A stretch of 56,296 bases of DNA from an uncultured Gammaproteobacteria bacterium (GTDB taxonomy: Bacteria > Patescibacteriota > Microgenomatia > PFEM01 > CAZTHI01), in the NCBI GenBank assembly GCA_964613135.1, contig CAZTHI010000001.1:14029-70324 (forward strand), in the 5' to 3' direction. Shown in pieces: positions 48,182-48,325 of this stretch. Below the pieces are notes generated by a model. That model did not search any database. It had not been told where the DNA came from and saw only the letters and a list, made by a program, of their open reading frames with translations. A program made the translations under genes and the position numbers. Numbering within the stretch: position 1 is the first letter of the stretch; each line of letters starts with the position of its first letter.

Positions 48182-48211
48182 TTGACAGGGAATTGCTATT
48201 CGTGTTAATAT
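48182..48211 (+). promoter_or_regulatory. promoter TTGACA-18-TAATAT (TGt extension)
   Basis: Read directly. The predicted TSS is near 48218-48219. Confidence 0.6.
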
Positions 48212-48219
48212 CCAAACCA

Positions 48220-48270
48220 GTGAGAAAGAATATTGAAGTCGTAAATTTTTGTTGTTGCTCTCCGGATTAA
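48220..48270 (+). CDS. 16-codon leader peptide MRKNIEVVNFCCCSPD
   Basis: GTG at the predicted TSS, TGT TGT TGC at 48250-48258, TAA at 48268-48270. Confidence 0.55.
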   Translation: MRKNIEVVNFCCCSPD

Positions 48271-48325
48271 TGGGGGGAGCGCTTATAGTGGTTGGCAATG
48301 AGCTCCCCAAGGGGAGCTTTTTTTA
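48257..48325 (+). promoter_or_regulatory. four-segment transcription attenuator
   Basis: Segments are 1 = GCTCTCC (48257-63), 2 = GGGGGGAGCGC (48272-82), 3 = AGCTCCCC (48301-08) and 4 = GGGGAGCT (48311-18). The 2:3 pairing is a perfect 7 bp. The 3:4 pairing is 7 bp followed by T7. Confidence 0.55.
48301..48325 (+). terminator. intrinsic terminator before cysK
   Basis: agctccc-caag-gggagct followed by TTTTTTT. Confidence 0.7.

What the first reader, a model, noticed from the sequence alone, without database searches (positions are those of the whole stretch)
48182..48325. Leader-peptide attenuator with three consecutive Cys codons controlling cysK-cysS
A promoter (TTGACA-18-TAATAT) starts a transcript whose first codons, from the GTG at 48220, encode MRKNIEVVNFCCCSPD*. 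The TGT TGT TGC codons (48250-58) abut segment 1 (GCUCUCC). Segment 1 can pair with segment 2 (GGGGGGAGCGC). Segment 2 can alternatively pair perfectly (7 bp) with segment 3 (AGCUCCCC). Segment 3 otherwise forms a GC-rich terminator with segment 4 (GGGGAGCU) plus U7. A ribosome stalled at the Cys codons would cover segment 1 and favour the 2:3 antiterminator. A ribosome reaching the stop at 48268 would cover segment 2 and allow 3:4 to form. This is trp/his-style attenuation applied to cysteine synthase and CysRS, in an organism that otherwise seems to use leaderless mRNAs.
Basis: partly seen in the sequence, partly recalled or inferred. Interest (0 to 1): 0.7.

Follow-up and report, generated by a model that had tools for sequence, protein, structure and literature searches.

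The report
Cysteine-sensing leader-peptide attenuator before cysK
A 16-codon mini-gene with three cysteine codons, followed by mutually exclusive RNA hairpins and a terminator, sits ahead of the cysteine synthase and Cys-tRNA ligase genes of an uncultured Patescibacteria (CPR) bacterium; eight diverged relatives keep the same design, so it is very likely a trp-style switch that turns these genes on when charged tRNA-Cys runs low.

Summary
At 48182-48324 there is a near-consensus promoter (TTGACA-18-TGtTAATAT). A GTG follows 8 nt after the -10 box and opens MRKNIEVVNFCCCSPD*. Four segments follow that can pair 1:2, 2:3 or 3:4, the last being an 8-bp terminator with U7. cysK and cysS lie downstream.

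The window alone is weak evidence. TGYTGYTGY occurs as often as chance predicts, and the fold z-score is -2.1.

The comparative evidence is strong. CysK proteins 62-68% identical, from Microgenomates-type CPR contigs, carry the same unit in 8 further independent loci:
- the start codon lies 7-9 nt after a -10 box, so the mRNA is effectively leaderless;
- Cys codons sit at codons 11-13 or 12-14;
- segment 1 overlaps the third Cys codon;
- segment 2 covaries with segments 3 and 4;
- ORF length differences are multiples of 3.

Folding with ribosome masks gives the antiterminator when the ribosome is stalled at Cys. It leaves the terminator arm free when the ribosome sits at the stop codon. A sister lineage has a T-box in the same position.

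The kind is known: mycobacterial polycysteine leaderless sORFs and the Rhodobacterales cysS uORFC-8-2 motif. This is a new family of that kind, and I found no earlier report from CPR bacteria. Nothing here is experimental.

The parts
48182..48187 (+). -35 hexamer TTGACA
   Evidence: Promoter scan. TTGACA/TTGACG/TTGAAG/TTGATT lies 17 nt before the -10 box in relatives L125, L126, L128, L041, L037 and L130.
48203..48211 (+). Extended -10 element TGtTAATAT
   Evidence: TG_before_second = yes. The -10 box ends 8 nt before the GTG. In relatives the gap is 7-9 nt, which leaves a 5' UTR of about 0-2 nt and no room for a Shine-Dalgarno sequence.
48220..48270 (+). Leader ORF: GTG start, 16 codons (MRKNIEVVNFCCCSPD), TAA stop at 48268-48270
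   Evidence: Sequence. Equivalent ORFs exist in 8 relatives with Cys at codons 11-13 or 12-14. Alignment gaps inside the ORF are multiples of 3. The N-terminal residues are not conserved.
48250..48258 (+). Three regulatory Cys codons, TGT TGT TGC
   Evidence: TGTTGTTGC is nearly invariant in the family; the exceptions are L128 (TGT TGT TGT) and L041 (TGT AGC TGC).
48257..48263 (+). Segment 1 (GCUCUCC), the 5' arm of the 1:2 anti-antiterminator; it overlaps the third Cys codon
   Evidence: Minimum-free-energy fold. RNAalifold consensus and pair counts, (helix 3 is 97% paired). Duplex dG -13.9 kcal/mol.
48272..48282 (+). Segment 2 (GGGGGGAGCGC), which pairs either with segment 1 or with segment 3 (antiterminator)
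   Evidence: In the family, the base after GGGAG covaries with segment 3: C-G in 5 members, G-C in L128, U-A in L125, U-G in L130, and one C/A mismatch in L041.
48300..48308 (+). Segment 3 (GAGCUCCCC), the 5' arm of the terminator and the 3' arm of the antiterminator
48311..48324 (+). Segment 4 (GGGGAGCUU) plus the U7 tract (48318-48324); with segment 3 it forms the intrinsic terminator
   Evidence: Terminator scan, (8 pairs, 5 of them GC, 4-nt loop). The hairpin is conserved and 96% paired across the family.
48361..49266 (+). cysK (cysteine synthase A), the regulated gene; the start is probably ATG 48358 or 48361
   Evidence: Pfam PALP. NCBIfam TIGR01139 cysK equivalog, 378.8 bits against a cut-off of 350.95. 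Homologues begin MKY/MxY..NIL.
49297..50691 (+). cysS (cysteine--tRNA ligase), 30 nt after cysK and probably co-transcribed
   Evidence: Pfam tRNA-synt_1e. TIGR00435, 420 bits against a cut-off of 340. No convincing promoter or terminator lies between the two genes.

Best explanation
This is a ribosome-mediated (leader-peptide) transcription attenuator that senses charged tRNA-Cys.

Proposed sequence of events:
1. Transcription starts at or within about 2 nt of GTG 48220, so the leader mRNA is effectively leaderless. A ribosome loads on its 5' end.
2. When Cys-tRNA-Cys is plentiful, the ribosome reads through the three Cys codons to the stop at 48268. There it occludes segment 2 (48272-48282). 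Segment 3 then pairs with segment 4, and RNA polymerase terminates at the U7 tract (48318-48324) before cysK.
3. When Cys-tRNA-Cys is scarce, the ribosome stalls at 48250-48258. Its footprint covers segment 1 (48257-48263) but not segment 2. Segment 2 pairs with segment 3 as soon as segment 3 is made. The terminator cannot form, and cysK-cysS is transcribed.
4. Without translation, 1:2 forms first and 3:4 terminates.

Shown here: the sequence elements; their conservation and covariation in 8 relatives; and the predicted structural switch under ribosome masks.

Inferred, not shown: the transcription start site, translation of the ORF, stalling, and termination in vivo.
For: 1. All elements are present in the window.

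2. The closest CysK homologues are named Patescibacteria/Microgenomates, Shapirobacteria and Woesebacteria. Eight independent loci with CysK 62-68% identical carry the same unit directly upstream of cysK, although the upstream neighbours differ: fic, a transposase, and hypothetical genes on either strand. The leader peptides are:
- MKQKSQIKVSCCCSLS
- MEIQNQTYISCCCSPV
- MKEKSQIMNVCCCSLKILGEPFFG
- MIKIGQTINLNCCCSLICMGACLFG
- MLVKTLSTNVCCCDDLKVGRGISN
- MNIRKNKIVLVCCCSHF
- MNKPSQIIYLNCCCSLLYTGACLC
- MQKSKQMLVSCSCSPQFLGEPFAG

3. There are signs that the ORF is translated. The start codon always lies 7-9 nt after a -10 box. The Cys codons are always at codons 11-13 or 12-14. Length differences in the ORF are 3-nt gaps. 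The N-terminal residues vary freely. The stop falls in one of two classes (codon 17/18 or 25/26), and in both a terminating ribosome sits on segment 2.

4. Structure. The consensus 1:2 and 3:4 helices were found by RNAalifold. 90% of cells are paired against 83% in shuffles, 0/500 shuffles reach the observed value, and slid controls give 38-67%. The 2:3 duplexes have dG -9.7 to -16.3 kcal/mol, and 0-11 of 500 shuffles reach them in the 8 relatives. Segments 2, 3 and 4 change together in L128 (GGGAGG / CCUCCC / GGGAGG) and in L125 (GGGAGU / ACUCCC / GGGAGU).

5. Ribosome-mask folding:
- Full leader: with no ribosome, 1:2 plus the terminator forms in all. With a stall mask, the antiterminator is the minimum-free-energy structure in 7 of 8 relatives. 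With a stop mask, the terminator forms in all.
- Transcript ending at segment 3: with a stall mask, segments 2 and 3 pair in 9/9, including the window. With a stop mask, they pair in 0/9.

6. Specificity. A covariance model of the family hits only its 9 training sequences in 540 kb. That search included the rest of the window and 86 other loci, 84 of them distant, mostly non-CPR cysK loci. Those distant loci show no comparable Cys-run mini-ORF followed by a terminator.

7. A sister CPR cysK (59% identical, L133) has a T-box with a UGGA bulge and a terminator in the same position. The slot upstream of cysK in this group therefore reads tRNA-Cys charging.

8. Leaderless starts, including a GTG start, are common elsewhere in the window.

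9. The downstream genes are true cysK and cysS equivalogs.
Against: - There are no expression data of any kind. The transcription start, translation of a 16-codon GTG-initiated leaderless ORF, stalling and premature termination are all inferred.
- In the window the 2:3 helix (7 bp) is weaker than the 3:4 helix. With the full leader and a stall mask, the terminator is still the equilibrium minimum-free-energy structure. The switch therefore has to be kinetic, meaning 2:3 forms before segment 4 is made.
- The window's 2:3 duplex alone is not significant against shuffles (35/500).
- The window's spacer between segments 2 and 3 is only about 17-18 nt, against about 35-45 nt in relatives. The window also lacks the extended outer helix (5' ORF region pairing with UUUGGYU) seen in most relatives.
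- The window is the only member with a GTG start.
- L040 has a Cys-Cys mini-ORF and a terminator but does not show the switch.
- The 9 sequences are related by descent, so the shuffle statistics overstate independence.
Confidence: 0.8

Rival explanations
1. The leader is a structured RNA switch that responds to something other than the translating ribosome, such as a small ligand, a protein or a tRNA. Under this reading the mini-ORF is incidental to a conserved RNA sequence (UGUUGUUGCUCCC).
For: - UGUUGUUGCUCCC is conserved at the nucleotide level, and part of it is helix arm 1.
- A conserved UUUGGYUAAA element after segment 2 has no proven role.
- A sister lineage uses a T-box at the same position.
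Against: - No Rfam family matches. There was no T-box hit even at E<=10, and the best hit was Phe_leader at 21.7 bits against a gathering score of 55.
- The ORF frame, the start codon at a fixed distance from the -10 box, the 3-nt indels and the two fixed stop positions are not expected of a non-coding element.
- L128 keeps three Cys codons (UGU UGU UGU) although its segment 1 has moved elsewhere. The codons are therefore conserved independently of the helix.
- The RNA between the helices is AT-rich and unconserved, which leaves no ligand pocket.
Confidence: 0.07
2. The mini-ORF encodes a functional Cys-rich micropeptide, for example a metal- or redox-active peptide or a RiPP-like peptide, that is co-expressed with cysK. 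The hairpins would then be only a partial terminator or a stabiliser.
For: - A CCCS motif is conserved in 7 of 9 peptides.
- Some members have extra Cys residues in the C-terminal extension (L127, L131).
Against: - Apart from the Cys run plus Ser, which is fixed by helix arm 1, the peptide sequence is not conserved.
- The C-termini fall in two unrelated classes, ending at codon 17/18 or at codon 25/26.
- The mutually exclusive 2:3 and 3:4 pairing, with three-way covariation, has no role in this model.
- No maturation or export genes are linked to it.
Confidence: 0.04
3. The Cys-codon stalling acts at another level than intrinsic termination. It could control cysK translation by unmasking the start region, as in mycobacteria, or it could act through Rho-dependent termination or mRNA stability.
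For: - The mycobacterial polycysteine leaderless sORFs work by unmasking the ribosome-binding site (abstract of 10.1101/834739).
- A GGA/GGAG-like element follows the terminator in the relatives.
Against: - A canonical GC-rich hairpin followed by U6-U7 is conserved in all members.
- The cysK start lies 20-40 nt beyond it and is not sequestered in the predicted folds.
Confidence: 0.06
4. The arrangement is a chance co-occurrence. The hairpin is simply the terminator of the upstream fic gene, the promoter is spurious, and the Cys codons are accidental.
For: - A triple Cys-codon string is not rare in the window.
- The promoter and terminator scans do not find more sites than shuffles do.
Against: - The order is fic stop, then promoter, then ORF, then terminator, then cysK, so the terminator lies after the promoter.
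- The whole unit is conserved upstream of cysK in 8 relatives whose upstream genes differ and are often on the opposite strand.
- It is absent from 86 other loci, 84 of them distant cysK loci.
Confidence: 0.02

Closest known systems
Classical leader-peptide transcription attenuators of amino-acid operons (E. coli/Salmonella trpL, hisL, leuL, thrL, pheL; Rfam Trp_leader, His_leader, Phe_leader and others)
   Same: It shares the short promoter-proximal ORF with tandem codons for the cognate amino acid. It shares four segments that form 1:2, 2:3 or 3:4, an intrinsic terminator before the first structural gene, and a read-out set by ribosome position. The stop codon lies just before segment 2, as in trpL.
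   Different: The amino acid is cysteine. The ORF appears to be leaderless, with no Shine-Dalgarno sequence and a start 7-9 nt after the -10 box. The host is a CPR bacterium. There is no sequence similarity: the best Rfam hit was Phe_leader at 21.7 bits against a gathering score of 55, driven by the terminator. An aminoacyl-tRNA synthetase gene is in the regulated operon.
Polycysteine leaderless short ORFs of mycobacteria (the 'Cys ribulon', Canestrari et al. 2020, bioRxiv 10.1101/834739; predicted earlier by Seliverstov et al. 2005, PMC1262725)
   Same: Both have a leaderless (AUG or GUG) short ORF with a run of Cys codons as the first cistron upstream of cysteine-metabolism genes. In both, stalling at the Cys codons remodels downstream RNA structure to switch the genes on.
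   Different: [quoted passage not shown] Here a conserved intrinsic terminator with a U-tract and a competing antiterminator are the output. The two are unrelated in sequence and phylum.
uORFC-8-2 motif upstream of cysS in Rhodobacterales (Brewer et al. 2021, RNA Biol, PMC8632094)
   Same: It is a predicted ribosome-mediated attenuator with a uORF carrying tandem Cys codons (positions 14-15), a stem overlapping the Cys codons, and a U-run intrinsic terminator. It lies upstream of a gene of tRNA-Cys charging.
   Different: It is found in alpha-proteobacteria, upstream of cysS alone, with two Cys codons. The family here has three Cys codons at positions 11-14, lies directly upstream of cysK (with cysS only sometimes downstream), and is leaderless. 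I could not compare the two sequences because no model of that motif was available to me.
T-box leader (RF00230) specific for tRNA-Cys
   Same: It has the same biological input (the charging level of tRNA-Cys) and the same output (terminator versus antiterminator upstream of cysK/cysS). A CPR cysK 59% identical to the window's carries one in the same position (L133:1915-2123, 65.5 bits, E 3.8e-14).
   Different: The window's leader has no T-box sequence, no Stem I and no specifier loop (no hit at E<=10). It senses the tRNA indirectly, through the translating ribosome.

Membership tests
Leader-peptide (ribosome-mediated) transcription attenuator, as a mechanistic class | A short ORF begins close to the transcription start, ahead of the structural genes. 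| tested here: met
   The ORF is at 48220-48270, 8 nt after the -10 box. The same holds in 8 relatives. The transcription start itself is inferred.
Leader-peptide (ribosome-mediated) transcription attenuator, as a mechanistic class | Tandem codons for the amino acid made or used by the downstream genes. | tested here: met
   TGT TGT TGC lies upstream of cysK and cysS. The relatives have CCC in 7 of 8 and CSC in 1.
Leader-peptide (ribosome-mediated) transcription attenuator, as a mechanistic class | An intrinsic terminator lies between the leader ORF and the first structural gene. | tested here: met
   The stem is at 48300-48319 with a U7 tract. It is conserved and 96% paired across the family.
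Leader-peptide (ribosome-mediated) transcription attenuator, as a mechanistic class | An antiterminator that excludes the terminator, and an anti-antiterminator that overlaps the end of the ORF. | tested here: met
   The 2:3 and 1:2 duplexes are listed for each sequence, with covariation. Ribosome-mask folding gives the expected switch.
Leader-peptide (ribosome-mediated) transcription attenuator, as a mechanistic class | Premature termination that is relieved by starvation for the cognate charged tRNA. | not testable with these tools
   This needs RNA 3'-end mapping, reporters, or in vitro coupled transcription-translation.
Rfam leader families (Trp_leader, His_leader, Leu_leader, Thr_leader, Phe_leader and others) | A covariance-model score at or above the family's gathering threshold. 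| tested here: not met
   The gathering scan of the whole window found only 3 tRNAs. The permissive scan's best hit was Phe_leader at 21.7 bits against 55.
T-box leader (RF00230) | Stem I with a specifier loop, plus the T-box sequence (AGGGUGGNACCNCG) in an antiterminator bulge. | tested here: not met
   There is no hit at E<=10 in 48100-48420. As a positive control, L133 scores 65.5 bits.
Mycobacterial polycysteine leaderless sORF attenuators | A leaderless sORF with a Cys-codon run upstream of cysteine-metabolism genes. | tested here: met
   Leaderless status is inferred from the spacing between the -10 box and the start codon.
Mycobacterial polycysteine leaderless sORF attenuators | [quoted passage not shown] | tested here: not met
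   Here a U-tract terminator is conserved. The cysK start, 34-42 nt downstream of the U-tract, is unpaired in the predicted folds.
uORFC-8-2 motif (Rhodobacterales cysS) | Sequence and structure match to the published consensus. | not testable with these tools
   No model or alignment of that motif was available. Only the description in PMC8632094 was read. The host clade, the position of the Cys codons and the adjacent gene all differ.

The most novel reading that the evidence does not exclude
This may be the first ribosome-mediated attenuator family recognised in Patescibacteria (CPR). It would be a leaderless, three-Cys-codon leader peptide coupled to an intrinsic terminator, specific to a Microgenomates-type clade. 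In sister lineages a Cys T-box occupies the same cysK slot, so the two tRNA-charging sensors appear to have replaced one another in evolution. If it functions as proposed, these ultra-small bacteria would rely on tight coupling between RNA polymerase and ribosomes that initiate on a 5'-terminal start codon. They would also actively regulate cysteine synthesis rather than merely scavenging cysteine.
Probability: 0.55. Interest if true: 0.6.

Novelty: new member of a known kind. Interest (0 to 1): 0.55.

Why it matters
Almost nothing is known about gene regulation in CPR/Patescibacteria, which cannot be grown alone. A conserved, mechanistically readable attenuator offers four things:

1. It is a concrete regulatory element that can be tested in vitro or in a heterologous host.
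2. It is indirect evidence that leaderless translation and transcription-translation coupling operate in these organisms.
3. It is evidence that this clade makes cysteine through CysK and adjusts that synthesis to tRNA-Cys charging.
4. It shows a leader-peptide attenuator and a T-box occupying the same regulatory position in related lineages.

It also helps annotation. Public gene calls start cysK at TTG 48292, inside the terminator. For the attenuation field it adds a third independent origin of cysteine-codon attenuators.

Tried and rejected
- Rfam. The gathering scan of the window found only 3 tRNAs. The permissive scan of 48100-48420 gave only sub-threshold hits driven by the terminator. 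I rejected a T-box, a known leader family and a known sRNA.
- Genome-contig scan with the single CysK protein. It returned only distant CysK (37-51% identity, non-CPR). I used these loci as negative controls.
- Metagenome-contig scan with a CPR CysK alignment. The conserved peptide patterns pulled in CysK of 43-57% identity, and none carries the leader. I used these as controls too.
- P0045. The contig DNA was not retrievable.
- MAFFT and covariance-model alignments. They put the G-runs and C-runs of segments 2, 3 and 4 in shifting registers. Column-wise pair counts for the 2:3 helix were therefore not meaningful. I replaced them with per-sequence duplex searches with shuffles, and with ribosome-mask folding.
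- Significance of the Cys triplet within the window alone. It is not significant.
- The idea that the conserved UUGGC/UUGGU after segment 2 is a T-box-like UGGN acceptor-binding site. I rejected it because tRNA-Cys has discriminator U73, which requires UGGA (established knowledge; UGGA is what the L133 T-box has). Instead the motif pairs with AGCCAAA/AACCAAAC in the 5' part of the ORF in most relatives (helix 1). It is not conserved as a helix in the window.
- L040. Its Cys-Cys mini-ORF and terminator do not show the alternative pairing, so I left it outside the family model.
- L132 (CysK 57% identical). It has no leader at all.
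Full report
**What is in the window**

- A promoter-like site (TTGACA 48182-48187, an 18-nt spacer, TAATAT 48206-48211 preceded by TG) is the second-best match in 46000-51500.
- Eight nucleotides after the -10 box, GTG 48220 opens a 16-codon ORF, MRKNIEVVNFCCCSPD, with TAA at 48268-48270. 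The three Cys codons are at 48250-48258.
- GCUCUCC (segment 1, 48257-48263) overlaps the third Cys codon.
- GGGGGGAGCGC (segment 2, 48272-48282) starts 2 nt after the stop.
- GAGCUCCCC (segment 3, 48300-48308) and GGGGAGCUU (segment 4, 48311-48319) form an 8-bp hairpin with a 4-nt loop, followed by U7.
- GGGGAGC of segment 2 is the exact complement of GCUCCCC in segment 3.
- Upstream is a Fic-domain gene that ends at 48169.
- Downstream are cysK (TIGR01139 equivalog, above its cut-off) and, 30 nt later, cysS (TIGR00435, above its cut-off).
- By homology cysK starts at ATG 48358 or 48361. The public 324-aa gene call from TTG 48292 runs through the terminator.

**Is it more than chance?**

Not on the window alone.
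- TGYTGYTGY occurs twice in 56 kb against 1.9 expected.
- The leader's folding energy has a z-score of -2.1.
- The 2:3 duplex is reached by 35 of 500 shuffles.
- No Rfam family matches. The best hit is Phe_leader at 21.7 bits against a gathering score of 55, which reflects only the terminator.

**Relatives**

The closest CysK proteins are 62-68% identical. Where they are named, they come from Patescibacteria: Microgenomates, Shapirobacteria and Woesebacteria.

I fetched the DNA around twelve of these proteins. Eight independent loci (L037, L041, L125, L126, L127, L128, L130, L131) carry the same unit directly upstream of cysK. The unit has these features:
- a -35/-10 promoter;
- a start codon 7-9 nt after the -10 box;
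- an ORF of 16-25 codons with Cys at codons 11-13 or 12-14 (CCC in seven, CSC in one);
- GCUCCC overlapping the last Cys codon;
- GGGAGC about 10 nt further on;
- an AT-rich spacer;
- a GCUCCC-loop-GGGAG hairpin followed by U6-U7;
- the cysK start 15-25 nt beyond the U-tract.

The upstream neighbours differ: a transposase, hypothetical genes on the opposite strand, RecR-linked genes, and fic in the window. The unit therefore belongs to cysK and not to the preceding gene. cysS follows cysK in some loci (the window, L037, L126) but not in L127, L128 or L130.

A tenth locus, L040, has MIICCVK* and a terminator of different sequence.

**Evidence that the ORF is read as codons**

- In the alignments all gaps inside the ORF are 3 nt long.
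- The N-terminal residues are unconserved while the ORF length is kept.
- The stop falls in two classes (nt 49-52 or nt 73-76 of the leader). In both classes a terminating ribosome sits on segment 2.
- L128 keeps three Cys codons (UGU UGU UGU) even though its partner for segment 2 has moved to codons 5-8. The Cys codons are thus conserved independently of the helix.

**Evidence for the alternative structures**

- RNAalifold recovers 1:2 and 3:4 as the consensus.
- On the model-based alignment, 90% of cells pair against 83% in column shuffles (0/500 reach the observed value) and 38-67% when partners are slid.
- Column registers of the G-runs and C-runs shift between sequences, so I tested 2:3 sequence by sequence.
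  - The best duplex between the terminator's 5' arm and the region after the Cys codons always falls on segment 2 (nt 54-69 of the leader).
  - Its dG is -9.7 to -16.3 kcal/mol.
  - It is reached by 0-11 of 500 shuffles in the eight relatives.
- The base after GGGAG in segment 2 changes together with its partner in segment 3, and with segment 4: C-G in five members, G-C in L128, U-A in L125 and U-G in L130. There is one C/A mismatch in L041.

**Ribosome-position test**

I folded each leader with the bases covered by a ribosome made unavailable.

With the full leader:
- no ribosome gives 1:2 plus the terminator in all;
- a ribosome at the stop gives the terminator in all;
- a ribosome stalled at the Cys codons makes the 2:3 antiterminator the minimum-free-energy structure in 7 of 8 relatives, but not in the window or in L126.

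With the transcript ending at segment 3, the moment that matters kinetically:
- the stall mask gives 2:3 in 9/9, including the window (-14.6 kcal/mol);
- the stop mask leaves segment 3 unpaired with segment 2 in 9/9.

L040 does not behave this way.

**Specificity**

A covariance model built from the nine leaders found only those nine in 540 kb. That search covered the rest of the window and 86 other loci. A scan for Cys-containing mini-ORFs and terminators upstream of about 110 distant cysK genes found nothing comparable. L132 (CysK 57% identical) has no leader.

**A T-box in the same slot**

L133 (CysK 59% identical, a CPR MAG) has a T-box upstream of cysK: RF00230 at 65.5 bits, E 3.8e-14. 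This is below Rfam's gathering score of 93 but unambiguous in a 411-nt search. It carries the GGGUGGAACCACG box and a terminator. UGGA fits the U73 discriminator of tRNA-Cys (established knowledge). Related lineages therefore control cysK by sensing tRNA-Cys charging with a different device. This supports the functional reading of the window's leader.

**Leaderless usage**

In the window at least seven other gene starts lie 6-8 nt after a good -10 box: 13109+, 25176+, 51797+, 2700- (GTG), 5120-, 9788- and 30393-.

**Mechanism, and what is inferred**

Shown:
- the elements, their conservation and their covariation;
- the predicted switch.

Inferred:
- transcription start at about 48218-48220;
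- 70S loading on the 5' end;
- stalling at the Cys codons when Cys-tRNA-Cys is low, which covers segment 1 and leaves segment 2 free to capture segment 3, giving read-through into cysK-cysS;
- otherwise, the ribosome at the stop covers segment 2, 3:4 forms, and transcription ends at the U7 tract.

The U-rich stretch after the 1:2 hairpin in the relatives (for example GGGGGAGCCUUUUUUUGG in L126) may act as a pause site that synchronises the ribosome with RNA polymerase. This is speculation.

**Comparison with what is known**

The logic is that of the trp, his and phe leaders. Cysteine versions already exist in the literature:
- Mycobacterial polycysteine leaderless sORFs act by unmasking the next gene's ribosome-binding site (10.1101/834739). 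They were predicted earlier, without terminators (PMC1262725).
- The uORFC-8-2 motif upstream of Rhodobacterales cysS has two Cys codons and an intrinsic terminator (PMC8632094).

The family here combines the leaderless start of the first with the terminator output of the second. It is unrelated to both in sequence and phylum. I found no report of it, or of any leader-peptide attenuator, in CPR bacteria. That search covers open-access papers only.

**Verdict**

It is a new member of a known kind. Interest is moderate. It is not surprising in principle, but it is a rare, directly testable regulatory element in a group of organisms whose regulation is essentially unexplored.

Noticed in passing
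L133:1915-2135: A T-box leader (RF00230, 65.5 bits, E 3.8e-14, with a UGGA bulge) plus a terminator lies upstream of a CPR cysK that is 59% identical to the window's. It occupies the same regulatory slot as the leader-peptide attenuator, with a different tRNA-Cys sensor. The candidate specifier UGC was not verified.
   Followed up: partly
window 46282-46339 and 46689-46746: Imperfect inverted repeats of 58 nt (71% complementary, with a 24-nt core at 88%) flank the 23S_rRNA_IVP-family gene at 46322-46687. They are built from TTTCGA/TCGAAA-type units. The arrangement could be a mobile cassette or a large stem around the gene.
   Followed up: partly
window 13109(+), 25176(+), 51797(+), 2700(-), 5120(-), 9788(-), 30393(-): These gene starts lie only 6-8 nt downstream of good -10 boxes, several of which have a TTGACA -35 element. 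Leaderless mRNAs therefore appear common in this genome. The start at 2700(-) is a GTG.
   Followed up: partly
window 48292-48360: Public gene calls for cysK differ. P0001 (324 aa) starts at TTG 48292, inside the terminator hairpin, and P0002 (305 aa) starts at ATG 48349. Homologues begin MKY/MxY..NIL, which points to ATG 48358 or 48361.
   Followed up: partly
L016:2917-2967 (also L017): Hyphomicrobiales MAGs carry a Cys-rich mini-ORF, MTAGSLAMCPMCPCMS, 34-85 nt upstream of cysK. No U-tract terminator is visible. It may be another, unrelated Cys-codon leader.
   Followed up: no
L037:2425-2440, L126, L127, L130, L125 (after segment 2); window 48291-48296: A conserved UUUGGYUAAA element follows segment 2. 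In most relatives it pairs with AGCCAAA/AACCAAAC in codons 5-8 of the leader ORF, extending the 1:2 hairpin, with an A-U/G-C compensatory change. The window keeps UUGGC but lacks the partner. The U-rich tract before the element might be a pause site.
   Followed up: partly
L040:2404-2494: A CPR cysK (66% identical) has a different leader: MIICCVK* lies 12 nt after its -10 box, followed by a long GGAAGC...GCUUCC hairpin and the terminator CUCGCCUUAGGCGAG-U6. It has Cys codons, but the alternative pairing could not be demonstrated.
   Followed up: partly
window 51185-51212: A perfect consensus promoter, TTGACA-16-TATAAT (12/12), has a -10 box that overlaps the ATG at 51211 of a 101-aa ORF. The real start of that gene or transcript is unclear.
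   Followed up: no
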